From the IMG/VR virus record IMGVR_UViG_3300014922_000089: a stretch of 29,494 bases of DNA; one strand, written 5' to 3'. The notes below the pieces were generated by a model, which saw only the letters and a list, made by a program, of their open reading frames with translations, made no database searches and was not told the DNA's origin. This DNA comes from a virus (taxonomy: Duplodnaviria > Heunggongvirae > Uroviricota > Caudoviricetes). A program made the translations under genes and the position numbers. Positions 1 to 29,494 of this stretch are shown here, one piece after another. Position 1 is the first letter of the stretch. The number at the start of each line of letters is the position of its first letter.

Positions 1-66
1 ATGATCATGCCATTATTATATTTAAACACTAGAGAGTGTCGTTGGTATTTAATGGGGGAAGGTGAG

Positions 67-384
67 ATGAAAAAGATAGCTGCTATATCATTAACTAGTA
101 TTTTTCTTATATCTGGTTGTGCTGTGCATAATGATGAGACAAGTATCGGTAAATTTGGTCTTGCATATAAAAGTAATATTCAGCGTAAACTCGATAACCA
201 ATACTACACCGAAGCCGAAGCTTCTTTAGCCAGGGGTAGAATATCTGGTGCAGAAAATATAGTAAAAAATGATGCAACTCATTTCTGTGTTACTCAGGGC
301 AAAAAAATGCAAATAGTTGAGCTGAAGACAGAAGGTGTAGGATTACATGGTGTCGCTCGTCTGACATTCAAATGTGGAGAGTGA
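67..384 (+). CDS. yegR: Small lipoprotein, YegR-like (105 aa), host flank
   Basis: ATG at 67 preceded by SD-like GGTGAG. N-terminus MKKIAAISLTSIFLISGC has a signal peptide plus lipobox (LISGC). Lies outside the att repeat. The yegR name is from recall of the K-12 yegQ-ogrK-yegR neighbourhood and is not verified. Confidence 0.55.
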   Translation: MKKIAAISLTSIFLISGCAVHNDETSIGKFGLAYKSNIQRKLDNQYYTEAEASLARGRISGAENIVKNDATHFCVTQGKKMQIVELKTEGVGLHGVARLTFKCGE

Positions 385-3959: not shown

Positions 3960-4231
3960 GTATTCGTATCGAAATTGGCGAACGTTATGTCGTTACCAGT
4001 GACAGCTTTCAGTTTATTCTCCACGAGAAAAAGAGAGCGGAAAGCGGTAAAAACGCCGGTCAGGAATGGCTGTCGGTGGTTGGTTATTACCCGAAATTAA
4101 GCCAGCTCGTTTCCGGCCTGATGCATCACGATATTCTGACCGGAAGCGCAAAGTCTTTTGCTGATTTAAACGCGCAGGTTGAGCAACTCAGCAAGCGTTG
4201 TTCAGAGGCTTTTGGCTCATATGGCCGTTAA
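3956..4231 (+). CDS. Hypothetical early protein (P2 orf83 position), 91 aa
   Basis: Position and size. 3' end overlaps the A start. Confidence 0.5.
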   Translation: MSIRIEIGERYVVTSDSFQFILHEKKRAESGKNAGQEWLSVVGYYPKLSQLVSGLMHHDILTGSAKSFADLNAQVEQLSKRCSEAFGSYGR

Positions 4232-6497
4232 AGCCTCCGGGCGTTTTGTCCCTCCGTCAGCATTTGCCGCAGGCACCGGTAAGGCGTTTACCGGTGCTTA
4301 TGCATGGAACGCGCCACGCGAGGCTGTCGGGCGCGAAAGACCCCTTACACGTGACGAGATGCGTCAGGTGCAAGGTGTTTTATCCACGATTAACCGCCTG
4401 CCTTACTTTTTGCGCTCGCTGTTTACTTCACGCTATGACTACATCCGGCGCAATAAAAGCCCGGTACACGGGTTTTATTTCCTCACATCCACTTTTCAGC
4501 GTCGTTTATGGCCGCGCATTGAGCGTGTGAATCAGCGCCATGAAATGAACACCGACGCGTCGTTGCTGTTTCTGGCAGAGCGTGACCATTATGCGCGTCT
4601 GCCGGGGATGAATGACAAGGAGCTGAAAAAGTTTGCCGCCCGTATCTCATCGCAGCTTTTCATGATGTATGAGGAACTCTGCGATGCCTGGGTGGATGCG
4701 CATGGCGAAAAAGAATCGCTGTTTACGGATGAGGCGCAGGCGCATCTGTATGGTCATGTTGCTGGCGCTGCACGTGCTTTCAATATTTCCCCGCTTTACT
4801 GGAAAAAATACCGTAAAGGGCAGATGACCACGAGGCAGGCATATTCTGCCATTGCCCGCCTGTTTAACGATGAGTGGTGGACTCATCAGCTTAAAGGCCA
4901 GCGTATGCGCTGGCATGAGGCGTTACTGATTGCTGTCGGGGAGGTCAATAAAGACCGTTCTCCTTATGCCAGTAAACATGCCATTCGTGATGTGCGTGCG
5001 CGCCGCCAGGCAAATCTGGAATTTCTTAAATCGTGTGACCTTGAAAACAAGGAAACCGGCGAGCGCATCGACCTTATCAGTAAGGTGATGGGCAGTATTT
5101 CTAATCCAGAAATTCGCCGGATGGAGCTGATGAACACCATCGCCGGTATTGAGCGTTACGCCGCCGCAGAGGGTGATGGGGGGATGTTTATCACGCTGAC
5201 CGCGCCGTCAAAGTATCACCCGACACGTCAGGTCGGAAAAGGCGAAAGTAAAACCGTTCAGCTTAATCACGGCTGGAACGATGAGGCATTTAATCCAAAG
5301 GATGCGCAGCGTTATCTCTGCCGCATCTGGAGCCTGATGCGCACGGCATTCAAGGATAATGATTTACAGGTCTACGGTTTGCGAGTCGTCGAGCCACACC
5401 ACGACGGAACGCCGCACTGGCATATGATGCTTTTTTGTAATCCACGCCAGCGTAACCAGATTATCGAAATCATGCGTCGCTATGCGCTCAAAGAGGATGG
5501 CGACGAAAGAGGAGCCGCGCGAAACCGTTTTCAGGCAAAACACCTTAACCGGGGCGGTGCTGCGGGATATATCGCGAAATACATTTCAAAAAATATCGAC
5601 GGCTATGCACTGGATGGTCAGCTCGATAACGATACCGGCAGACCGCTGAAAGATACTGCGGCGGCTGTTACCGCATGGGCGTCAACGTGGCGCATCCCGC
5701 AATTTAAAACGGTTGGCCTGCCGACAATGGGAGCTTACCGTGAGCTACGTAAATTGCCTCGCGGCGTCAGCATTGCTGATGAATTTGACGAACGCGTGGA
5801 GGCTGCACGCGCCGCCGCAGACAGTGGCGATTTTGCGCTGTATATCAGCGCGCAGGGCGGGGCAAATGTCCCGCGCGATTGTCAGACTGTCAGGGTCGCC
5901 CGTAGCCCGTCGGATGACGTTAACGAGTACGAGGAAGAAGTCGAGAGAGTGGTCGGCATTTACGCGCCGCATCTCGGCGCGCGTCATATTCATATCACCA
6001 GAACCACGGACTGGCGCATTGTTCCGAAAGTTCCGGTCGTTGAGCCTTTGACTTTAAAAAGCGGCATCGCCGCGCCTCGGAGTCCTGTCAATAACTGTGG
6101 AAAGCTCACCGGTGGTGATACTTCGTTACCGGCTCCCACACCTTCTGAGCACGCCGCAGCAGTGCTTAATCTGGTTGATGACGGTGTTATCGAATGGAAT
6201 GACCCGGAGGTCGTGAGGGCGCTCAGGGGCACATTAAAACACGACCGGAGAACGCCAAACCGTCAGCAAAGAAACGGAAGCCCGTTAAAACCGCATGAAA
6301 TTGCACCATCGGCCAGACTGACCCGGTCGGAACGATTGCAAATTACCCGTATCCGCGTTGATCTCGCTCAGAACGGTATCAGGCCGCAACGATGGGAGCT
6401 TGAGGCGCTGGCGCGTGGCGCGACCGTAAATTATGACGGGAAACCTTTCACTTATCAGGTCGCTGATGATTGGCCGGGATTTTTGTTACCCATTTGA
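4221..6497 (+). CDS. A: Replication initiation protein A (rolling-circle HUH endonuclease)
   Basis: Starts MAVKASGRFVPP at the ATG at 4221 (the track starts earlier at TTG). HUH-like motif HHDGTPHWHMMLF and paired active-site tyrosines in GYIAKYISKN. About 758 aa. Confidence 0.9.
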   Translation: MAVKASGRFVPPSAFAAGTGKAFTGAYAWNAPREAVGRERPLTRDEMRQVQGVLSTINRLPYFLRSLFTSRYDYIRRNKSPVHGFYFLTSTFQRRLWPRIERVNQRHEMNTDASLLFLAERDHYARLPGMNDKELKKFAARISSQLFMMYEELCDAWVDAHGEKESLFTDEAQAHLYGHVAGAARAFNISPLYWKKYRKGQMTTRQAYSAIARLFNDEWWTHQLKGQRMRWHEALLIAVGEVNKDRSPYASKHAIRDVRARRQANLEFLKSCDLENKETGERIDLISKVMGSISNPEIRRMELMNTIAGIERYAAAEGDGGMFITLTAPSKYHPTRQVGKGESKTVQLNHGWNDEAFNPKDAQRYLCRIWSLMRTAFKDNDLQVYGLRVVEPHHDGTPHWHMMLFCNPRQRNQIIEIMRRYALKEDGDERGAARNRFQAKHLNRGGAAGYIAKYISKNIDGYALDGQLDNDTGRPLKDTAAAVTAWASTWRIPQFKTVGLPTMGAYRELRKLPRGVSIADEFDERVEAARAAADSGDFALYISAQGGANVPRDCQTVRVARSPSDDVNEYEEEVERVVGIYAPHLGARHIHITRTTDWRIVPKVPVVEPLTLKSGIAAPRSPVNNCGKLTGGDTSLPAPTPSEHAAAVLNLVDDGVIEWNDPEVVRALRGTLKHDRRTPNRQQRNGSPLKPHEIAPSARLTRSERLQITRIRVDLAQNGIRPQRWELEALARGATVNYDGKPFTYQVADDWPGFLLPI

Positions 6498-6757
6498 GTA
6501 AAAACACAACGTGATTTGATATGGCATTGAATGGCTTATGCGGAGCAGTTATGGGGCAGCAGAAGGTCAATAGCATGCTGAATTAGAAGGCTAAATGCTA
6601 TTGAGTGACTAGCATGTCGGTAAGGACAGCCGTTTGATCCTGGTCATAAAAGGCCATCCATTTAGTCTAATAAAATCATTGCGGGTAACCTTATGTCGAC
6701 GCATAATTCGTCTTGAGCGAAGTCTTGTCAGTCTTTCATCGTATTGATGATGGGCGC

Positions 6758-6787
6758 AAAAAAACCACCCTGGCAGGTGGTTTTTTT
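6758..6787. terminator. Bidirectional rho-independent terminator
   Basis: AAAAAAACCACC-CTGGCA-GGTGGTTTTTTT: a GC stem flanked by an A-run and a T-run, so it works on both strands. Downstream of A (+) and of the small minus-strand ORF. Confidence 0.6.
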
Positions 6788-6799
6788 GTTTGAAGCATA

Positions 6800-6913
6800 T
6801 TAAAGCATAATGCTGACATTGATATTACTGACGTTTACTGACAAACCACTCGGACTACCGTTTGGATAGCCAAAGAGGGCCAGAACGAGAATGCAGTAAT
6901 AGCATTTCTTCAT
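6800..6913 (-). CDS. Small hydrophobic protein (37 aa), hypothetical
   Basis: ATG at 6913 preceded by a perfect AGGAGG SD at the correct spacing. Product MKKCYYCILVLALFGYPNG... Terminator immediately downstream. The longer 88-aa track ORF has no RBS. Confidence 0.35.
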   Translation of the reverse strand: MKKCYYCILVLALFGYPNGSPSGLSVNVSNINVSIML

Positions 6914-7391
6914 ATTGCCTCCTGTAAGTAGAGGGCAACTTCCACCGGTATATGCGCTTCTTAGGTGGAATGACTTTTGAGCGAAGTCTTGCCCTGAAAT
7001 AATGCTCTGTTTAAACGCAAAGTGATTTGGCATATCACCGAACAGAGAGCCGGAAAAACACAACATATAGTATGTCGTTGTTTCTAGACATACATTCTAT
7101 GTTGTGTAACAAGGGCTTTGCATTAAACATGTTTGAGATTTTATTGATGTAGCTCAAAGTAAAAAACAGAGACTACGGATGATAAGGTCTTGAAAGCAAT
7201 GTAAATTTTTTAAAGTTGCCAATTGCTTAAAAATGTACAGTTGCGGTATGGCGTACTTAAAAAGCTATGCATGCAACAAGTGAATGTTTTTGCATGCGTT
7301 GGGGATGTCCGTTCAGGCTGCGTGCGGTCAGGACTGGTGCGGATCCATAGTATCTATGCAACTGCATTAAAACCGCCCCGTGAAACGGGCG

Positions 7392-7410
7392 GGCGAGGCG
7401 GGGAAAGCAC
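7392..7410. other. cos site (19-nt cohesive-end sequence GGCGAGGCGGGGAAAGCAC)
   Basis: Exact match to the P2 cohesive-end sequence as recalled. Correct side and orientation relative to Q. Confidence 0.5.
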
Positions 7411-7424
7411 TGCGCGCAAAATGT

Positions 7425-7570
7425 TCTTGAAATATTTGTGACATAAGCTAAGACACAAAATGATTGAAGGGCAGAGCAAATCCTACAGTCCTATGCTATT
7501 GTCTCATGTAATGTAGATAAGTTGAAAATTATCTTAAAATATAAGAGTAAAGACATTAAAAGGATTGGTT
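7425..7570 (+). promoter_or_regulatory. AT-rich putative promoter / 5' UTR of the cargo gene
   Basis: Abrupt shift to AT-rich sequence right after cos. TTGAAA and TATAAG-like hexamers present. AAAGGA SD 8 nt upstream of the ATG at 7571. No confident -35/-10 pair resolved. Confidence 0.3.
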
Positions 7571-8896
7571 ATGAATAATAACTCTAAGTTATTAAGCTCT
7601 ATCTCGGTTGAATCTGATTTCGAGAACCTTATAAAACTATATGCAAATGAGTTATTTGGTGGTGAAACATATCTGATCGGTGGTCCTTGGGATAATGGAA
7701 AGGATTTGGTAATAAAAAAGGGGAATAGAGAGTTAAAGCAAGCTGTACAAATATCTATTCAAGAGAAAAATATTGAAAGTAAGATTGCTCAAGATATTAA
7801 AAAAGTGGCGAAATTGGTTGATGATCATTATTACCCGCCTGTATTATATTTTTTTTGGAGTCATTCAATATCTGAGCATTTATTGGATAAGATAAGAACA
7901 AATGCTCTTAAGGAAGATTTGATTAGATTGGAGTTTTATGATGCCAAACGAATCTCTCAAGATATTACAGATAAATACCCAGGGTTATTGAATTACTTAA
8001 TAAAAGATATACATAAGATAAGTTCTAATACTGAAGATGCAATTAACTTGCAACAAAGAGCATTTTATGAATATTTATTGTTAAGCAAAGATAGTGCTAA
8101 TTTAAAAAATGAAATAATAAAAGCTAGTATTATGTCTAATTTATATGATGGCGGGAAGTCTGCTGATGATATTCTAGAGAATCTAAAAGGTGTTAGTCTT
8201 ACAAAACGTAGTTTACAGGGTAGACTGCAAAACCTAATTCATCAAAATAAAATTAGATTGAATGATGGTATATATAGCCTGTCACCAGAGGAAATTAAAA
8301 AACTTGAGAATATAAATCTCCGTGAAATTGTTAGAAAAGAAGAGTTGTTATCAGTAATAAATAATGAGTTGCCCAGAAATACAAGTAAGAATCTGGCTGT
8401 TCAAGTTGTTGATTTAATAATAAAGGCTTATGAAGAATCAATAAATGTCCAATTAACAGAAAGTAAATTTGAGCCTCCAAAATTACAGATATTCAAAACT
8501 ATAGTACATAATTTAAAGGTGTTGATACGGCAGGAATATGATTTGGATGATGAGTCTTCGGATGCTTTAGCAAAAAAGCTAATGGAGTTGGCTGGTCAAA
8601 ATGACTATTTATCCGAGCATTGCTCTGCTAAATTATGTGTGAATCTGTTAAGTGATCGGAAATTAGAGAAATATATTGAAAATAAAAATTTTTATATCTA
8701 TTTTGATGCGCCTGTTCTTATTCCATATTTGATAACTCTTATGTTTGGAGATTTTGAGCTTTTTGATAAGTCGATTAAAAATATAAATTTACTGAGAGAG
8801 TGCATAAATCCCCTCAAAAATAAACATCTGAGAGTTTCTAATGAACATTTTGAAGAAACTGCAAGGCACTACTCTGAAGCTGAAAAATTAAGTTAG
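7571..8896 (+). CDS. Cargo protein, N-terminal segment (441 aa); possible Mrr-like PD-(D/E)xK nuclease motif
   Basis: ATG at 7571 with SD. AT-rich with K/N/I-rich codon usage, foreign to the phage backbone. Motif GGPWDNGKDLVI...IQEK resembles Mrr-type GGxxDxGxD...QxK. Ends at an in-frame TAG (8894-8896). Confidence 0.7.
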   Translation: MNNNSKLLSSISVESDFENLIKLYANELFGGETYLIGGPWDNGKDLVIKKGNRELKQAVQISIQEKNIESKIAQDIKKVAKLVDDHYYPPVLYFFWSHSISEHLLDKIRTNALKEDLIRLEFYDAKRISQDITDKYPGLLNYLIKDIHKISSNTEDAINLQQRAFYEYLLLSKDSANLKNEIIKASIMSNLYDGGKSADDILENLKGVSLTKRSLQGRLQNLIHQNKIRLNDGIYSLSPEEIKKLENINLREIVRKEELLSVINNELPRNTSKNLAVQVVDLIIKAYEESINVQLTESKFEPPKLQIFKTIVHNLKVLIRQEYDLDDESSDALAKKLMELAGQNDYLSEHCSAKLCVNLLSDRKLEKYIENKNFYIYFDAPVLIPYLITLMFGDFELFDKSIKNINLLRECINPLKNKHLRVSNEHFEETARHYSEAEKLS

Positions 8897-8959
8897 TTTG
8901 TAACTGAAGATTTAATTAGTCAACTTGGTGAGTCGAAAAATGTATACTTTAATGTTTAT

Positions 8960-9832
8960 ATGCGGTGGAAAAACAAACAGCCTAAACGTACAGACTTTTA
9001 CGATTTTACTTATGCTTTTCTAGGGTTGGATAAAGATGATATTTATGCGGGATATAAGCATGACACATTTGCGCAATGCATTCATAATTTACTAGCGTCA
9101 GCAAATATTGTTGTAATTGATAATAAAGACTCGGTGTCACAAGACTTTGTATTTAAAATAAAGCAAAAACTTAAAAGGGATTTGAATTCTTCACGTCCCG
9201 TTCGAGCCATAGAAAATGATGTTATATGTGCTGCAACTTTGAGTGATGAAACCCTACATCTTGATTCCAATGGTTACTTCAGTACTCCCATGCTAATAAC
9301 ACTTGATAGATCTCAATATCTATTGAGAAGCATAGTAAGAAATGAAAGGAGACATGCTGAATGGTTGGTTTATACCCCTCAAAGAGCAATTGAACGTCTT
9401 TCCTTGGTGGGTTTAAAAATATCATCGGAATCGTTAAAGGATGGTGTTTTAGCAACCATATCAGAAGAATATTTCTTTAAAGAAAGTTCCAGTAGTTTGA
9501 TTGATACTTTGGCTATTATCATTGGAGATAATCAAGCAAGGCAAGGAGATGTTATTAGGCTTGCATCGCTTTTAAAAAGAAAGGTCAATGAGGAATCTAT
9601 TGAGAATTCAGAAATTGATATTGAACACTATAATAACATTAGTTATGTGCTTCTTTTCATTCATCGTGAATTTAAATCTGAATTTTCAAATATAATAAAA
9701 ATTTTTGCTGAGGATAGTAGGCGAGATAAACTGGTTGAAGTTTTGTTATCCACTATTCAAGGAGTTTTTGATGAGAGTAAAAAGGAAATCTTGCGCTCAA
9801 ATATAGGACGGTTGTTGGCTGAAATGGGATGA
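8960..9832 (+). CDS. Cargo protein, C-terminal segment (290 aa); same frame as 7571-8896, no own SD
   Basis: Same reading frame as the upstream ORF. The 63 nt between them are open in that frame. No SD upstream of the ATG at 8960. Probably a continuation of one gene interrupted by an amber codon. Confidence 0.55.
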   Translation: MRWKNKQPKRTDFYDFTYAFLGLDKDDIYAGYKHDTFAQCIHNLLASANIVVIDNKDSVSQDFVFKIKQKLKRDLNSSRPVRAIENDVICAATLSDETLHLDSNGYFSTPMLITLDRSQYLLRSIVRNERRHAEWLVYTPQRAIERLSLVGLKISSESLKDGVLATISEEYFFKESSSSLIDTLAIIIGDNQARQGDVIRLASLLKRKVNEESIENSEIDIEHYNNISYVLLFIHREFKSEFSNIIKIFAEDSRRDKLVEVLLSTIQGVFDESKKEILRSNIGRLLAEMG

Positions 9833-9847
9833 TTTCTTGGTAATTGA

Positions 9848-9884
9848 ACGGCACTATGGTCGTTGCTTATAGTGCCGTTTTAAG
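9848..9884 (+). terminator. Rho-independent terminator after the cargo gene
   Basis: Perfect 10-bp stem ACGGCACTAT / ATAGTGCCGT with an 11-nt loop, followed by TTTTAA. Confidence 0.55.
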
Positions 9885-9923
9885 GTGTCGTGCCATTATG
9901 AATGGCATATCCGAGTTTATATA

Positions 9924-10958
9924 TTAGGTATCGCAAGTATCTAGTGAGTAGTTTTTAAAGTGGATGACCTCCTGACCGAGCCAGCCGTTTATTTCCCGAA
10001 TTCTGTCCTGTAGCGGGATAAGCTCATTGCGGACAAAGACCTTTGCCACTTTCTCAATATCGCCCAGCGACCCGACGTTCTCCGGCTTGCCGCCCATCAA
10101 CTGAAAAGGGATGCGGTGCGCGTCCAGCAGGTCAGCGGCGCTGGCTTTTTTGATATTAAAAAAATCGTCCTTCGTCGCCACTTCACTGAGCGGGATAATT
10201 TTAATGCCGTCGGCTTTCCCCTGCGGGGCATAGAGAAACAGGTTTTTAAAGTTGTTGCGGCCTTTCGACTTCACCATGTTTTCGCGGAGCACTTCGATAT
10301 CGTTGCGATCCTGCACGGCATCAGTGACGTACATGATGTATCCGGCATGTGCGCCGTTTTCGTAATACTTGCGGCGGAACAGCGTGGCCGACTCATTCAG
10401 CCAGGCAGAGTTAAGGGCGCTGAGATATTCCGGCAGGCCGTACAGCTCCTGATTAATATCCGGCTCCAGCAGGTGAAATACGGAGCCGGGCGCGAAAGGT
10501 GTCGGCTCGTTGAAGGACGGCACCCACCAGTAAACATCCTCCTCCACGCCACGGCGGGTATATTTTGCCGGTGAGGTTTCCAGTCTGATGATCTTACCGG
10601 TGGTGCTGTAACGCTTTTCCAGAAACGCATTACCGAACACCAGAAAATCCAGCACAAAGCGGCTGAAATCCTGTTGTGAAAGCCACGGATGCGGGATAAA
10701 TGTCGAGGCCAGAATATTACGTTTGACGTAAATCGGTGAGCTGTGATGCACGGCAGCACGCAGGCTTTTTGCCAGACCGGTAAAGCTGACCGGTGGCTCA
10801 TACCATCTGCCGTTACTGATGCACTCGACGTAATCCAGAATGTCACGGCGGTCGAGTACCGGCACCGGCTCACCAAAGGTGAATGCCTCCATTTTCGGGG
10901 CGCTGGCGGTCATTTTTTTTGCCGCAGGTTGCGGTGTTTTCCCTTTTTTCTTGCTCAT
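9924..10958 (-). CDS. Q: Portal protein Q (344 aa)
   Basis: 344 aa, as P2 Q. Leftward operon with P. Confidence 0.9.
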   Translation of the reverse strand: MSKKKGKTPQPAAKKMTASAPKMEAFTFGEPVPVLDRRDILDYVECISNGRWYEPPVSFTGLAKSLRAAVHHSSPIYVKRNILASTFIPHPWLSQQDFSRFVLDFLVFGNAFLEKRYSTTGKIIRLETSPAKYTRRGVEEDVYWWVPSFNEPTPFAPGSVFHLLEPDINQELYGLPEYLSALNSAWLNESATLFRRKYYENGAHAGYIMYVTDAVQDRNDIEVLRENMVKSKGRNNFKNLFLYAPQGKADGIKIIPLSEVATKDDFFNIKKASAADLLDAHRIPFQLMGGKPENVGSLGDIEKVAKVFVRNELIPLQDRIREINGWLGQEVIHFKNYSLDTCDT

Positions 10959-18085: not shown

Positions 18086-18230
18086 CCCGCAGACGAACGG
18101 CGATTTAAGTGCCGATATCCGGCAGCTTGAGAACGCGCTGGCACGCTGTGCCAGCCAGGTAAAAATGATTAAACACTGTCAGGATGAAAACGATGCTCAA
18201 ACCCGACAGCCTGCGCAGGGCGCTGACTGA
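17940..18230 (+). CDS. lysC: LysC (Rz1-like outer-membrane lipoprotein spanin), 96 aa, embedded out of frame in lysB
   Basis: MKTKIFAAGMVLTCLMLCAGC: signal peptide plus lipobox. Proline-rich. Overlaps the lysB 3' end in another frame. Confidence 0.7.
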   Translation: MKTKIFAAGMVLTCLMLCAGCTSAPPAPTPVIVANACPKVSLCPMPGSDPQTNGDLSADIRQLENALARCASQVKMIKHCQDENDAQTRQPAQGAD

Positions 18231-18414
18231 TGCCGTCACGGTGCTGAAAACCAGTCCCGAGATGCTGCGGATATTCGTGGATACTGGATGTGCAAAGGCT
18301 CCTGGTCATATGCAAATAACAAAATCATTACGGATACCGGATGTGGTGATATCCACCTGGCTGGTTGTGTCGTCGAGGTCATGGGAACAAAATCTGCAAT
18401 CACCATCCGAGTGA
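18193..18414 (+). pseudogene. R: Truncated tail completion gene R (only about 32 N-terminal codons R-like, then junk)
   Basis: MLKPDSLRRALTDAVTVLKTSPEMLRIFVDTG matches the gpR N-terminus as recalled. The frame then runs into unrelated sequence. S, V, W, J and I are absent. Confidence 0.5.
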
Positions 18415-19394
18415 CAACGCCGACAACATCAAGTGGTGGCGGTACAACCAGCGCGCAATTCACTTACATTAATCATGGGGACGGCTACTCCCCCGGCTGG
18501 CGTCGTGACTGGAATCGTCAGGGCGACGCAATGACCGGAACGATTAATCAGGACGGCGGAAGCCAGAATACCTATATGTCTACGGCCTTATGTTCAGGCA
18601 CCAGAGGCGGCAAAAAATATCTCAGAAAGTTTCGTGGTGGAGAAGGAGACACTATCTGGCATGAAACAGTACAGGGCGGGGTTGTTCGCTGGGCGACTGG
18701 TAATACTGATGCTCAGGAAGAATTATCACTCAGCTCCGCTTATGGTCTCCGTTCAAGAGGTGAGATTACATCAAGCAGTGCTAATGGTCTGCGCATTGCT
18801 TATGGCAATTATGGATTCTTTATCAGGAATGATGGCAGCAGCACTTATTTTATGTTGACTAAATCAGGTGACAGATTAGGCACTTATAATAATTTAAGAC
18901 CACTGATTATAAATGATGCCACGGGTGCTGTATCAATGGGGCATGGCCTGAGTGTTACTGGTGATATTGTCTCAAGTACCAAAGTACGTGCCGGTAGCGG
19001 GAAAAAATTCACGGTCAGCAGCAGTAATACATCCACGAAGGAAGCCGCATTCAATTTGTGGGGAAACTCAAGTCGTCCGGTGGTGGCTGAATTAGGTGAT
19101 GATGCAGGCTGGCATTTTTACAGTCAGAGAAATACAGATAACAGCATCACTTTTGCTGTTAACGGTCAGGTATCACCATCTAACTATAGTAATTTTGATT
19201 CCCGTTATGTACGCGATATCCGGCTTGGGACTCGAGTTGTCCAGACCATGCAGAAAGGGGTGATGTATGAGAAAGCAGGGCACGTAATTACCGGGCTTGG
19301 TATTGTCGGTGAAGTCGATGGTGATGATCCCGCAGTATTCAGACCAATACAAAAATACATCAATGGCACATGGTATAACGTCGCACAGGTGTAA
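18288..19394 (+). pseudogene. H: 3' fragment of tail fibre gene H (C-terminal about 368 codons), no N-terminal region
   Basis: Gly/Ser/Thr-rich fibre-like sequence ending immediately before G. P2 H is 669 aa, so the 5' half is missing. Confidence 0.6.
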
Positions 19395-20076: not shown

Positions 20077-20856
20077 TTAAAATATCCAACTGATAAATCC
20101 ACCTGAATACTTTTCACTAATTTTGATTGCATAAAGATCATGAAGAGTTATAAATAAATCATTATCTTCTTTGAAAATTAACTCCTCATATTCTGCCATT
20201 ATCAAATTATGCTGTGTTGTTAGTTTAGATATGTTATCTATTTCACTGGCAAGCATGGATTTGTTTACATTGGTGTGTGGATCCATGGCAATATATTTCC
20301 GCATCAATGGAATTAGTTGATCAGGGTCTATATTTTTTGCATTTTCCTTTGCTTTTTTTTGTCTTTCTGAATAGATGGAGTTAATTGTGTCAGTGTGTTT
20401 TTTCGCCAGTCTCTTAAACTCTGGATATGAACCAGTAACTAATGCAAGCTCTTCGTACTTAAGGAATAAATCGATATTGCATTTTTTTACCGTCATTTCA
20501 AGATCTTCAACTCTTTTTTTTAACTCTTCATTTGTTTTAATAAGAGACATCGGGAGAACTTCATAATGTTGTCCTAATTCTGAATCAGGGCTCATTGCCA
20601 TATGTACTATTTCATTATACATGAGCTGATAAGAAGCAGATAACTCTCCATACTTTAGAAATAGTTCATTATGTGAAGATGAACAAGAACTTTGTAATTT
20701 CATCATTGGCCTAAAGTAATCCTTTATAAACTCCTCCTGAAGATCTTGGTCTTTTTTGTAGCTCTCTAGGATTCCAGCAAAAAGAAATGACCCTAAAGAT
20801 ATAGAGATTATGGATATTAGCAATTGACTAAGGAATGATTGTGTTTCATTACTCAT
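20077..20856 (-). CDS. AT-rich cargo protein, 259 aa, N-terminal transmembrane helix (Z/fun-position gene)
   Basis: ATG at 20856 with AAGGA SD. One predicted transmembrane helix (LSQLLISIISISLGSFLFAGIL), then a helical soluble region. Opposite strand to the late genes. AT-rich. Confidence 0.65.
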   Translation of the reverse strand: MSNETQSFLSQLLISIISISLGSFLFAGILESYKKDQDLQEEFIKDYFRPMMKLQSSCSSSHNELFLKYGELSASYQLMYNEIVHMAMSPDSELGQHYEVLPMSLIKTNEELKKRVEDLEMTVKKCNIDLFLKYEELALVTGSYPEFKRLAKKHTDTINSIYSERQKKAKENAKNIDPDQLIPLMRKYIAMDPHTNVNKSMLASEIDNISKLTTQHNLIMAEYEELIFKEDNDLFITLHDLYAIKISEKYSGGFISWIF

Positions 20857-28132: not shown

Positions 28133-29494
28133 TCACTTACCGTGGGGATTACGCGTGGTTTCCCCGGAGAAATTACGCATCAGCAGCGCGTAATTGAGCT
28201 CAAGATCCTGCGGGACCGGGAGCCACACAGTATAACCATCGCCTGGTGCTATCGGCATAGCTTCGCCTTTGGCGTTTTCCATGTGCTCAAGGGTAAAATT
28301 AATGTTGCCTTGCGGCGTCATCAGCTCAAGGCTGTCGCCAACGGAGAATTTATTTTTCACCGCTACCGCCGCGAGGTCCCCCTTGCGCTCACCGGTAAAC
28401 TCACCAACAAACTGCTGGCGGTCAGAAACTGAATAACCGTATTCGTAGTTCTGATAATCGTCGTGAGTATGACGACGCAGGAAACCTTCGGTATAGCCAC
28501 GATGCGCCAGACCTTCCAGAGTTTCCAGCAGGCTGGTATCGAACGGTTTTCCCGCAGCGGCGTCATCGATAGCTTTGCGGTAAACCTGTGCGGTGCGTGC
28601 ACAATAGTAGAAAGATTTGGTACGACCTTCGATTTTCAGCGAATGCACGCCCATTTTGGTCAGGCGTTCTACATGGGCGATGGCGCGCAGATCTTTCGAG
28701 TTCATGATGTAAGTGCCGTGCTCATCTTCAAACGCGGTCATATACTCGCCCGGACGCTGGGCCTCTTCGATCATAAACACTTTGTCGGTTGGTGCGCCGA
28801 TACCCAGCGTCGGCTCAACATTTTGCACCGGAATCGGCTCGTACTTGTGTACGATGTTGCCAACATCATCTTCTTTCCCTTCCTGGACGTTGTACTCCCA
28901 GCGGCAGGCGTTGGTGCAGGTGCCCTGGTTCGGGTCGCGCTTGTTGATATAGCCAGAGAGCAGGCAGCGACCGGAGTAGGCCATGCACAGCGCGCCGTGA
29001 ACGAAGATCTCGATCTCCATATCCGGCACCTGATTGCGGATCTCTTCAATCTCTTCCAGCGACAGCTCGCGAGAGAGGATCACGCGGGTCAGGCCCATTT
29101 GCTGCCAGAATTTCACCGTCGCCCAGTTCACGGCGTTAGCCTGCACCGAAAGGTGGATCGGCATTTCAGGGAAGTGCTCACGCACCAGCATAATCAGCCC
29201 TGGATCGGACATAATCAGCGCATCCGGCCCCATTTCCACCACCGGTTTCAGGTCACGGATAAAGGTTTTCAGCTTGGCGTTGTGCGGTGCAATGTTGACC
29301 ACGACATAAAACTTTTTCCCCAGCGCGTGGGCTTCATTGATGCCGAGCTGAAGATTTTCGTGGTTGAATTCGTTGTTGCGCACACGCAGGGAATAACGCG
29401 GCTGGCCCGCATAAACAGCATCTGCGCCATAAGCGAAAGCGTAACGCATATTTTTCAGCGTTCCCGCCGGGGAAAGGAGTTCCGGTTTAAACAT
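28133..29494 (-). CDS. yegQ: Peptidase U32-family protein YegQ/TrhP (453 aa), host flank
   Basis: Full-length 453 aa starting MFKPELLSPAGTLKNMRYAFAYGADAVYAGQPRY, with the start codon at the window edge. Outside the att repeat. Confidence 0.85.
   Translation of the reverse strand: MFKPELLSPAGTLKNMRYAFAYGADAVYAGQPRYSLRVRNNEFNHENLQLGINEAHALGKKFYVVVNIAPHNAKLKTFIRDLKPVVEMGPDALIMSDPGLIMLVREHFPEMPIHLSVQANAVNWATVKFWQQMGLTRVILSRELSLEEIEEIRNQVPDMEIEIFVHGALCMAYSGRCLLSGYINKRDPNQGTCTNACRWEYNVQEGKEDDVGNIVHKYEPIPVQNVEPTLGIGAPTDKVFMIEEAQRPGEYMTAFEDEHGTYIMNSKDLRAIAHVERLTKMGVHSLKIEGRTKSFYYCARTAQVYRKAIDDAAAGKPFDTSLLETLEGLAHRGYTEGFLRRHTHDDYQNYEYGYSVSDRQQFVGEFTGERKGDLAAVAVKNKFSVGDSLELMTPQGNINFTLEHMENAKGEAMPIAPGDGYTVWLPVPQDLELNYALLMRNFSGETTRNPHGK

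What the first reader, a model, noticed from the sequence alone, without database searches (positions are those of the whole stretch)
8894..8959. Single in-frame TAG splits the cargo reading frame; downstream segment has no RBS
ORF 7571-8896 and ORF 8960-9832 are in the same frame. The 63 nt between the TAG and the next ATG contain no further stop in that frame (FVTEDLISQLGESKNVYFNVY), and no Shine-Dalgarno precedes the ATG at 8960. The simplest reading is one gene of about 753 aa inactivated by an amber nonsense mutation, or a sequencing/assembly error. Alternatives are two genes expressed by reinitiation, or amber suppression in a suppressor host. A nonsense-inactivated defence gene inside a defective prophage would suggest selection against a costly or toxic function.
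Basis: seen in the sequence. Interest (0 to 1): 0.6.

Follow-up and report, generated by a model that had tools for sequence, protein, structure and literature searches.

The report
Amber-stopped predicted phage-defence gene in prophage
One C-to-T change (CAG to TAG) cuts a 753-residue predicted anti-phage nuclease gene, carried by a crippled P2-like prophage of E. coli, through the middle of its PIN-like nuclease domain; this is an ordinary, recent loss-of-function allele, not a new coding arrangement.

Summary
ATG 7571 to TGA 9832 is one 753-codon frame with a single stop, TAG 8894-8896. The other two frames carry 66 and 119 stops.

Intact E. coli alleles are otherwise identical in protein and read CAG (Gln442) at that codon. 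About 500 homologue clusters are overwhelmingly single chains of 750-830 aa.

It is not a read error. The same TAG sits in at least 12 contigs from several sequencing runs. The intact protein is on record in several hundred assemblies.

All 13 other variable sites among eight alleles are synonymous, so the gene was under purifying selection and the lesion is recent.

The gene sits in the P2 gpA-portal defence hotspot. Two published tables list it as an uncharacterised or predicted defence gene; it has never been tested. The prophage lacks 5.9 kb of tail genes. Selected loss and neutral decay cannot be told apart.

The parts
7450..9850 (+). AT-rich cargo island (about 28-35% GC) between P2-type replication gene A and portal gene Q. 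This is the P2 'gpA-Q' variable hotspot.
   Evidence: GC 0.28-0.36 inside against 0.50-0.59 in the flanks; other E. coli P2-like prophages carry SIR2, HNH, AAA ATPase, HEPN or reverse-transcriptase genes at this position; flanks are Phage_GPA and Phage_portal.
7560..7564 (+). Shine-Dalgarno (AAGGA) of the cargo gene, 6 nt before ATG 7571.
   Evidence: Read directly from the sequence. The RefSeq start of the intact orthologue corresponds to 7571.
7571..8893 (+). Codons 1-441 of the gene, the only part expected to be translated. It contains the Mrr-like domain, the winged helix, the helical linker and the first half of the PIN-like domain (beta1-D379 through helix E429/H433).
   Evidence: The exact 441-aa product is on record on 8-12 contigs.
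7571..7975 (+). Residues 1-135: Mrr-cat-like PD-(D/E)xK nuclease fold (G38, D41, G43, D45, Q60, K71, D75, K78 invariant among close relatives).
8153..8290 (+). Residues about 195-240: winged-helix (wHTH) domain.
8666..9436 (+). Residues 366-622: PIN-like nuclease domain with a helical insertion (about residues 445-510). The acidic residues D379, E429, D550 and D579 are invariant across relatives of 15-38% identity.
8894..8896 (+). Amber codon TAG (codon 442). T at 8894 replaces the C of CAG (Gln) found in all intact alleles.
8897..8959 (+). Codons 443-463, in frame but with no start codon, so in neither product. They contain family-invariant F443, G453, K456, N457 and N461 (motif LGESKNVYFN).
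8960..9832 (+). Codons 464-753 plus TGA: the downstream 290-aa ORF. It has no Shine-Dalgarno and carries the second half of the PIN-like domain (D550, D579) and the C-terminal helical domain. Probably not translated.
   Evidence: Gene callers annotate it as a separate 'hypothetical protein' (WP_257251279.1).
9846..9880 (+). Hairpin between the convergent cargo and portal genes, followed by a short T run. Likely terminator.
   Evidence: -18.5 kcal/mol, z = -3.57 against shuffles. The consensus scan missed it.
4221..6497 (+). P2-type replication endonuclease gene A (left border of the hotspot).
   Evidence: a 758-aa Phage_GPA gene in the identical locus L002, converted to window coordinates.
9924..10958 (-). 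Portal gene Q (right border of the hotspot).

Best explanation
The two ORFs are the halves of one gene, the E. coli allele of WP_053286240 (753 aa). A single C>T transition at 8894 turned Gln442 (CAG) into an amber stop.

Shown:
- The mutation is real and heritable in one E. coli lineage.
- It is recent.
- The ancestral gene was under purifying selection.

The intact protein is a solitary, mobile-element-borne protein. It has an N-terminal Mrr-like PD-(D/E)xK nuclease fold, a winged helix, a helical linker, a PIN-like nuclease domain with a helical insertion, and a C-terminal helical domain.

The stop falls inside the PIN-like domain, after beta1-D379 and the E429 helix and before D550 and D579. 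The expected product is therefore a 441-residue fragment with half a PIN domain.

The downstream 290-codon ORF has no ribosome-binding site. Even if it were made, it would lack the invariant LGESKNVYFN segment. The allele is therefore a loss-of-function pseudogene in a prophage that has also lost its tail genes.

Inferred, not shown: the intact protein is an auto-inhibited anti-phage nuclease. On this reading the conserved wHTH, PIN and helical core senses or binds nucleic acid, and the exchangeable N-terminal module (Mrr-like here, DUF4062/TIR-like in distant relatives) acts as an effector.
For: Single frame, single stop:
- 1 stop in frame 0 against 66 and 119 in the other frames; shuffles never gave fewer than 41.

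Orthologous sense codon:
- Seven intact E. coli alleles read CAG at the site, and their protein is identical to the window's at every other residue.

The family is single-chain:
- 46 close hits are mostly 752-762 aa.
- Residue 442 is a sense residue in all 31 aligned sequences.
- 499 clusters match at E<=1e-3, and most of the best 150 are 750-830 aa.
- Of the short hits, the two checked were one contig-end fragment and one broken ORF on a contig labelled 2x.

Not a read error:
- TAG is present in L002, L003, L004, L006 and L008, from samples ERZ1741985, ERR526045, ERR526046 and SRR35867418. In all, 12 contigs carry the exact 441-aa product.

Recent lesion, previously constrained gene:
- 13 synonymous, 0 missense and 1 nonsense variable sites among the window and seven intact alleles.

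Domain structure:
- D379, E429, D550 and D579 are invariant across 62 sequences of 15-37% identity. In the 102-sequence set (15-38%), E429, D550 and D579 are invariant and D379 is nearly so.

Gap and downstream start:
- The gap holds the invariant residues F443, G453, K456, N457 and N461.
- No Shine-Dalgarno before ATG 8960.

Defence context:
- The gpA-portal hotspot carries known defence genes in other strains.
- WP_053286240 is listed as a one-gene 'hypothetical' P2 hotspot locus in Rousset et al. 2022, Table S5A (PMC9122126).
- It is listed as a 'predicted novel defense gene', mean log-odds 13.06, in DefensePredictor Table S10 (PMC13092281).
- Vibrio and Pantoea homologues are solitary genes beside integrases, transposases or a prophage edge.
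- The N-terminal module is exchanged for DUF4062 in P0144 and P0160.
Against: - No expression data exist. Low-level UAG readthrough, or an amber suppressor elsewhere in the genome, cannot be excluded from a 29-kb window (none lies in the window).
- The PIN and Mrr assignments rest on predicted structures plus conserved residues.
- Pfam PIN models do not reach threshold: one weak PIN_12 hit among 62 members.
- The canonical (D/E)xK lysine of the Mrr-like domain is not at the expected position.
- No anti-phage activity has been tested for any member. PADLOC, NCBIfam and PHROGs give nothing.
- The samples carrying the TAG may be one clone sequenced several times. That rules out a read error but says little about how widespread the allele is.
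Confidence: 0.85

Rival explanations
1. Sequencing or assembly error: the true sequence is CAG and the gene is intact.
For: It is a single-base difference from the common allele. One other assembly of this gene (L007) carries nine single-base indels that could be technical errors.
Against: The identical TAG occurs in at least 12 contigs from several independent runs and assemblies. These include ERZ1741985, ERR526045, ERR526046 and SRR35867418, each 100% identical to the window over 2.5-3.4 kb. The window haplotype also has six private synonymous differences from all the intact alleles examined, so it is a distinct lineage and not a miscalled copy of the common allele.
Confidence: 0.02
2. The full-length protein is still made, through amber suppression or readthrough. 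A glnV/supE-type suppressor tRNA (anticodon CUA) would insert Gln and restore exactly the wild-type protein.
For: The codon is CAG>TAG, so a Gln-inserting suppressor would give a perfect revertant protein (inference from established suppressor genetics). All 13 other variable sites, including the six downstream of the stop, are synonymous.
Against: There is no tRNA gene in the window. Amber suppressors are rare in natural E. coli isolates (general knowledge), and basal UAG readthrough is very low. Three of the six downstream synonymous sites vary only among intact alleles, and the window's three differences (8995, 9052, 9301) could predate the mutation, so they carry little weight.
Confidence: 0.04
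3. Two functional genes: the 441-aa and 290-aa products are both made, the second by reinitiation, and assemble into a split protein.
For: The ORFs are in frame and only 63 nt apart. The break lies next to the helical insertion in the PIN-like domain, a kind of place where split proteins are sometimes tolerated (inference). Gene callers annotate both ORFs.
Against: There is no Shine-Dalgarno and no start codon in the 63-nt gap. The gap removes five family-invariant residues, including N457, which is invariant in 102 distant relatives. No homologue examined shows a stable split at this point. The allele differs from intact ones by one step only.
Confidence: 0.03
4. The truncation is adaptive, not just tolerated. 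Either loss of a costly or self-toxic nuclease was selected, or the 441-aa Mrr-like plus wHTH fragment has a function of its own (altered activity or dominant-negative).
For: The same gene carries independent lesions in other E. coli lineages. One is an IS1 end abutting codon about 393, seen in 12 contigs. Another is an allele with nine single-base indels. Defence nucleases can carry autoimmunity costs (general knowledge). The fragment keeps a complete Mrr-like domain and the wHTH.
Against: The intact protein is on record in several hundred assemblies, against about a dozen each for the amber and IS1 forms. It persists both in complete-looking prophages and in strongly degraded ones. Its 13:0 ratio of synonymous to missense sites shows that it is normally maintained. 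The amber and IS1 alleles sit in prophages with large deletions, where neutral decay is expected.
Confidence: 0.12

Closest known systems
WP_053286240.1 (E. coli 'hypothetical protein', 753 aa): the intact allele of this gene
   Same: Identical at all 752 other residues. Same prophage, same gpA-portal hotspot, same integration site between yegR and yegQ.
   Different: The window has TAG instead of CAG at codon 442, plus 7-10 synonymous differences.
VapC-type PIN-domain nucleases (e.g. PDB 1y82, 5sv2 VapC21, 4chg VapC15)
   Different: No Pfam PIN model reaches threshold. There is a helical insertion of about 65 residues. The domain is embedded in a 753-aa multidomain protein. There is no adjacent VapB-type antitoxin.
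Mrr-cat / type IV restriction endonuclease-like effector domains (AspBHI, AF1548, and the N-terminal nuclease of Avs4)
   Different: There is no STAND ATPase and no DNA-modification reader domain. The lysine of the (D/E/Q)xK triad is not conserved at the canonical place (Q60-I-S62; K71 is invariant instead), so activity is uncertain.
DS-3 and DS-5 of DefensePredictor (validated PIN-containing anti-phage systems of E. coli; PMC13092281)
   Same: A PIN-fold nuclease used in defence without a cognate antitoxin. In DS-3 the PIN domain is also interrupted by a large insertion.
   Different: There is no detectable sequence relationship: hhalign probability 0.8% and 0.1%. DS-3 is 340 aa with no Mrr-like or wHTH module. 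This family has not been tested experimentally.
Cargo of the P2 variable hotspots (old, tin, PARIS, retrons, SIR2 proteins; Rousset et al. 2022, PMC9122126)
   Same: Same locus type: an AT-rich, horizontally exchanged gene between gpA and the portal gene. It is catalogued there as a one-gene locus.
   Different: It was not among the systems cloned and tested there, and it has no hit to any PADLOC model.

Membership tests
Nonsense-mutated allele (pseudogene) of a single gene | Both ORFs are in one frame, separated by a single stop, with coding-type stop depletion on both sides. | tested here: met
   1 stop against 66 and 119 in the other frames. Shuffles gave a mean of 65.9 and a minimum of 41.
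Nonsense-mutated allele (pseudogene) of a single gene | Orthologous alleles carry a sense codon at the site, one mutational step away. | tested here: met
   CAG in L001, L007, L009 and L016-L021.
Nonsense-mutated allele (pseudogene) of a single gene | Homologues are single polypeptides spanning the break. | tested here: met
   The two short hits that were checked turned out to be fragments.
Nonsense-mutated allele (pseudogene) of a single gene | The stop is reproducible in independent sequence data. | tested here: met
   At least 12 contigs from several runs.
Nonsense-mutated allele (pseudogene) of a single gene | The full-length product is absent in vivo. | not testable with these tools
   This needs a western blot or proteomics, and a search of the host genome for amber suppressor tRNAs.
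PIN-domain nucleases | PIN alpha/beta/alpha fold. | tested here: met
PIN-domain nucleases | Conserved acidic residues (D, E, D, D) that bind the catalytic metal. | tested here: inconclusive
   D379, E429, D550 and D579 are invariant and lie at the expected secondary-structure positions. Their clustering in 3D and their superposition on VapC active-site residues could not be inspected.
PIN-domain nucleases | A match to a curated PIN sequence model above threshold. | tested here: not met
   Only P0203 hits PIN_12, at E = 0.0055 and 17.5 bits against a cutoff of 32. Nothing for the query itself.
Mrr-cat / PD-(D/E)xK nucleases | Restriction-endonuclease-like fold. | tested here: met
Mrr-cat / PD-(D/E)xK nucleases | A sequence-profile match to Mrr_cat. 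| tested here: inconclusive
   Sub-threshold Pfam hits in 7/30 and 10/62 members, best E = 0.0018. A published HH search gives probability 97.1.
Mrr-cat / PD-(D/E)xK nucleases | Catalytic D ... (D/E/Q)-x-K triad. | tested here: inconclusive
   D41, D45 and Q60 are invariant, but the residue two positions after Q60 is Ser. The invariant lysines are K71 and K78.
VapBC-type toxin-antitoxin module | A small adjacent antitoxin gene co-transcribed with the PIN toxin. | tested here: not met
   No conserved small neighbour. The upstream ORFs have no family hit and differ between loci.
Described anti-phage defence systems | A match to a model of a known or candidate system. | tested here: not met
   PADLOC-DB v2.0.0: no hit. 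No relation to DS-3 or DS-5.
Described anti-phage defence systems | Location in a recognised defence hotspot of a mobile element. | tested here: met
   The gpA-portal hotspot of P2-like prophages. Listed in Rousset 2022, Table S5A.
Described anti-phage defence systems | Protection against phage when expressed. | not testable with these tools
   Not among the systems cloned by Rousset et al. or the DS systems of DefensePredictor.

The most novel reading that the evidence does not exclude
The intact 753-aa protein founds an undescribed single-gene anti-phage system. It would have a conserved wHTH, insertion-bearing PIN-like and helical core, with an exchangeable N-terminal effector (Mrr-like nuclease or DUF4062/TIR-like). 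On this reading the amber, IS1 and indel alleles in E. coli are repeated, selected losses caused by its cost or autoimmunity. The window allele would then be a natural knockout for testing this.
Probability: 0.12. Interest if true: 0.5.

Novelty: new member of a known kind. Interest (0 to 1): 0.25.

Why it matters
For annotation, the two 'hypothetical proteins' called here (441 aa and 290 aa, the latter already in RefSeq as WP_257251279.1) should be merged and flagged as one pseudogene.

For biology, the finding is an ordinary loss-of-function allele. It does draw attention to a widespread family (about 500 clusters at 50% identity) that has never been tested. The family has two nuclease-type folds and sits in a classic defence hotspot. 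The isogenic CAG and TAG alleles give a ready-made positive and negative pair for a defence assay.

Together with the IS1-disrupted and indel-bearing alleles, it offers a small natural data set on how prophage-borne defence genes decay.

Tried and rejected
- **Sequence-profile searches.** Pfam, PADLOC, NCBIfam and PHROGs gave no significant family for the protein or for either half.
- **PDB by sequence.** A profile search gave only a chance-level hit to dehydroquinase.
- **Phage genome collection.** No match by megablast.
- **Complete E. coli genomes.** Only one of 5,426 carries the gene, so allele frequencies had to come from the draft and metagenome index.
- **Pfam across diverse members.** Scans of 30 and 62 members were run to find PIN at sequence level. 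Only Mrr_cat recurred, weakly, and PIN appeared once. The PIN assignment therefore rests on structure.
- **Relationship to DS-3 and DS-5.** Tested by hhalign and rejected.
- **Natural split variants.** I asked whether the shorter database hits ending near residues 455-490 are natural splits. The two I checked were a contig-end fragment and a broken ORF on a contig labelled 2x. The others were not checked.
- **Promoter and terminator scan.** Nothing above shuffle expectation.
- **Suppressor tRNA.** None in the window.
- **Literature.** No paper describes the protein beyond entries in two supplementary tables.

Full report
**1. The observation**

Reading 7400-10000 and translating 7571-9835 confirms the report.
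- ATG 7571 opens a frame that runs to TGA 9830-9832, 753 codons in all, with one internal stop: TAG at 8894-8896.
- The 21 codons after it read FVTEDLISQLGESKNVYFNVY.
- The next in-frame ATG/GTG/TTG is ATG 8960.
- The 20 nt before ATG 8960 have no purine-rich element. ATG 7571 has AAGGA 6 nt upstream.
- Frame 0 has 1 stop, against 66 and 119 in the other two frames.
- In 2000 shuffles of this 30%-GC stretch, frame 0 never had fewer than 41 stops.

Both halves are therefore coding sequence in one frame.

**2. What the stop is**

A megablast against complete E. coli genomes found one hit, strain 1218KP, at 99.6% identity. RefSeq annotates it there as a single 753-aa CDS, WP_053286240.1.

At the stop position that genome reads CAG, Gln. 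The two genes differ at nine positions: eight are synonymous and the ninth is the C>T at 8894.

Six further intact alleles from draft genomes all read CAG and all encode the identical protein. Across the window and seven intact alleles there are 13 synonymous variable sites, no missense site, and the one nonsense site. The gene is therefore normally under purifying selection. The window's copy has gained no second lesion, so the amber mutation is recent.

**3. One gene or two in relatives**
- A search of 5.8 billion proteins gave 46 hits, most of 752-762 aa, from Escherichia, Rahnella, Erwinia, Serratia, Klebsiella, Enterobacter, Vibrio, Aeromonas, Pectobacterium, Pantoea, Shewanella and Pseudomonas.
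- In a 31-sequence alignment, residue 442 is a sense residue everywhere (Q, E, R, Y, L, T, D, G or S). It lies inside the best-conserved block of the protein, EHFEETxRHxxxAEKLSxFVTxELxxxLGESKNVYFN.
- A profile search of 1.84 billion cluster representatives found 499 clusters at E<=1e-3. Most of the best 150 are 750-830 aa and match end to end.
- I checked two of the shorter hits. One is cut by a contig end. The other is a broken ORF on a contig labelled '2x'.

**4. Error or real allele**

The exact 441-aa and 290-aa products are on record in the protein collection.

Twelve contigs carry the 441-aa product. They come from samples including ERZ1741985, ERR526045, ERR526046 and SRR35867418. The five of them retrieved as loci all read TAG and are 100% identical to the window over 2.5-3.4 kb. 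The intact protein is indexed in 444 blocks of the same collection.

The TAG is thus a real but minority allele of one lineage. That lineage also has six private synonymous differences from every intact allele examined.

**5. What the protein is**

Sequence libraries give nothing significant.

- Mrr-type restriction nuclease folds: AspBHI 10.1, AF1548 9.8, Avs4 9.5, LlaBIII 9.1, FokI 8.5.
- Winged-helix regulators.

In alignments of 62 and 102 relatives that are only 15-38% identical to the query, the invariant or nearly invariant columns include D379 (in an LDT motif), E429, N457, D550, D579 and P603. In the model, D379 follows beta1, E429 lies in the helix after beta2, D550 lies in the helix after beta3, and D579 follows beta4. 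This is the arrangement of the acidic residues in PIN nucleases (established knowledge of the fold). I could not inspect the 3D clustering directly.

For the N-terminal 135 residues:
- A GGPxDxGxD...Q motif is conserved.
- Pfam Mrr_cat is hit weakly by 7 of 30 and 10 of 62 members.
- A published HH search reports a type IV Mrr hit at 97.1% probability over 18% of the protein.
- The lysine of the canonical (D/E/Q)xK is not where it should be, so catalytic competence is open.
- In some distant relatives this module is replaced by DUF4062. That kind of effector swapping is typical of defence proteins (inference).

**6. Consequence of the stop**

Residue 442 lies at the end of the helix that carries E429 and H433. 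Strands beta3 to beta5, D550 and D579 are all downstream.

The 441-aa fragment therefore has a complete Mrr-like domain and winged helix but only half a PIN-like domain.

The 290-codon ORF starts at residue 464. The 21 residues in between hold F443, G453, K456, N457 and N461, which are invariant among close relatives. N457 is invariant in all 102 distant relatives as well.

With no Shine-Dalgarno and no start codon in the gap, the second ORF is unlikely to be translated. Even if both pieces were made, the invariant segment would be missing. I conclude loss of function. This step is inferred, not measured.

**7. Context**

The window is a P2-like prophage integrated between yegR and yegQ. It runs integrase, C, Cox, B, A, then the cargo, then Q, P, O, N, M, L, the lysis genes and onward.

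The cargo is a 2.4-kb island of about 30% GC in 50-59% GC surroundings. It lies between replication gene A and portal gene Q. Related prophages carry SIR2, HNH, AAA-ATPase, HEPN or reverse-transcriptase genes at that position.

Two published tables list the protein:
- Rousset et al. 2022 list WP_053286240 as a one-gene 'hypothetical' locus of the P2 hotspot (Table S5A) but did not clone it.
- DefensePredictor (Science 2026) lists it among uncharacterised clusters as a 'predicted novel defense gene', with a mean log-odds of 13.06. It is not among the validated DS systems.

It is unrelated in sequence to the validated PIN systems DS-3 and DS-5. Vibrio and Pantoea homologues are solitary genes beside an integrase, a transposase or a prophage edge. 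A defence role is thus a reasonable but untested inference.

**8. The prophage is defective**

Compared with the complete relative in strain GB089, the window joins position 18282/18283 across a 5,878-bp gap. The gap removes most of R, all of S, V, W, J and I, and the 5' half of tail-fibre gene H. The same deletion accompanies the TAG in L006 and L008.

**9. Selected loss or decay**

Other E. coli lineages carry different lesions in the same gene.
- In L009 and 11 similar contigs, the gene is cut at about codon 393 by an IS1 end. This sits in a prophage that has lost everything between the portal and tail-tube genes.
- In L007 the gene has nine single-base indels, which may be technical.

Against selected loss, the intact gene is far commoner. 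It persists in complete-looking prophages (L016, L018, L020, L021) and in heavily degraded ones (1218KP, L017, L019). L017 has the same large deletion as the IS1 lineage. The data do not separate selection against a costly nuclease from ordinary decay of a dead prophage. I lean towards decay or drift.

**10. Verdict**

The feature is a recent amber pseudogene allele of an uncharacterised, probably defensive nuclease gene. It is of low interest as a coding oddity. It is of modest interest as a pointer to an untested family and as a natural null allele.

Noticed in passing
window 18230-18290 (junction at 18282/18283): A 5,878-bp deletion relative to the complete P2-like prophage of E. coli GB089. 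lysC and the start of gene R are joined directly to the middle of tail-fibre gene H. Most of R, all of S, V, W, J and I, and the 5' half of H are missing. The 368-aa ORF 18288-19394 is only the C-terminal part of the fibre.
   Followed up: yes
L009:1-139 (joins window-equivalent position 8749): In another E. coli lineage (12 contigs) the same cargo gene keeps CAG at codon 442, but an IS1 end cuts it off at about codon 393. The surrounding prophage has lost everything between the portal and tail-tube genes.
   Followed up: yes
L007:8405-10964 (window-equivalent 7932-8760): An allele from GCA_024608725.1 keeps CAG but has nine single-base indels and a 3-nt substitution cluster. All lie in an 830-nt stretch of the 5' half and none in the 3' half. 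It is unclear whether this is real decay or an assembly artefact.
   Followed up: partly
window 20077-20856 (- strand): A 259-aa ORF on the opposite strand between tail-fibre assembly gene G and sheath gene FI. This is the second P2 variable position. Its only match is PHROG 7729 (unknown function), and GB089 carries the same gene as a 'hypothetical protein'.
   Followed up: partly
window 6498-7450: Nearly 1 kb between gene A and the cargo gene has no convincing gene. There is only an 88-aa ORF (- strand, 6800-7066) and a 72-aa ORF (7223-7441), both without family hits. A GC-rich hairpin followed by T's lies on the - strand at 7392-7373. The region is 85% identical to the corresponding stretch in strain 1218KP and is replaced by other genes (DUF3850/ASCH and others) in some prophages that carry the same cargo.
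   Followed up: partly
P0144, P0160 (distant homologues; no window coordinates): Distant members of the family keep the region equivalent to residues about 150-753 but replace the N-terminal Mrr-like module with a DUF4062 domain. P0180 has a weak HD_assoc match. This suggests an exchangeable effector on a conserved core.
   Followed up: partly
window 1-384 and 28133-29494: The prophage is flanked by yegR (left end of the window) and a U32 peptidase gene (right end, - strand). All loci carrying this cargo gene use the same integration site.
   Followed up: partly
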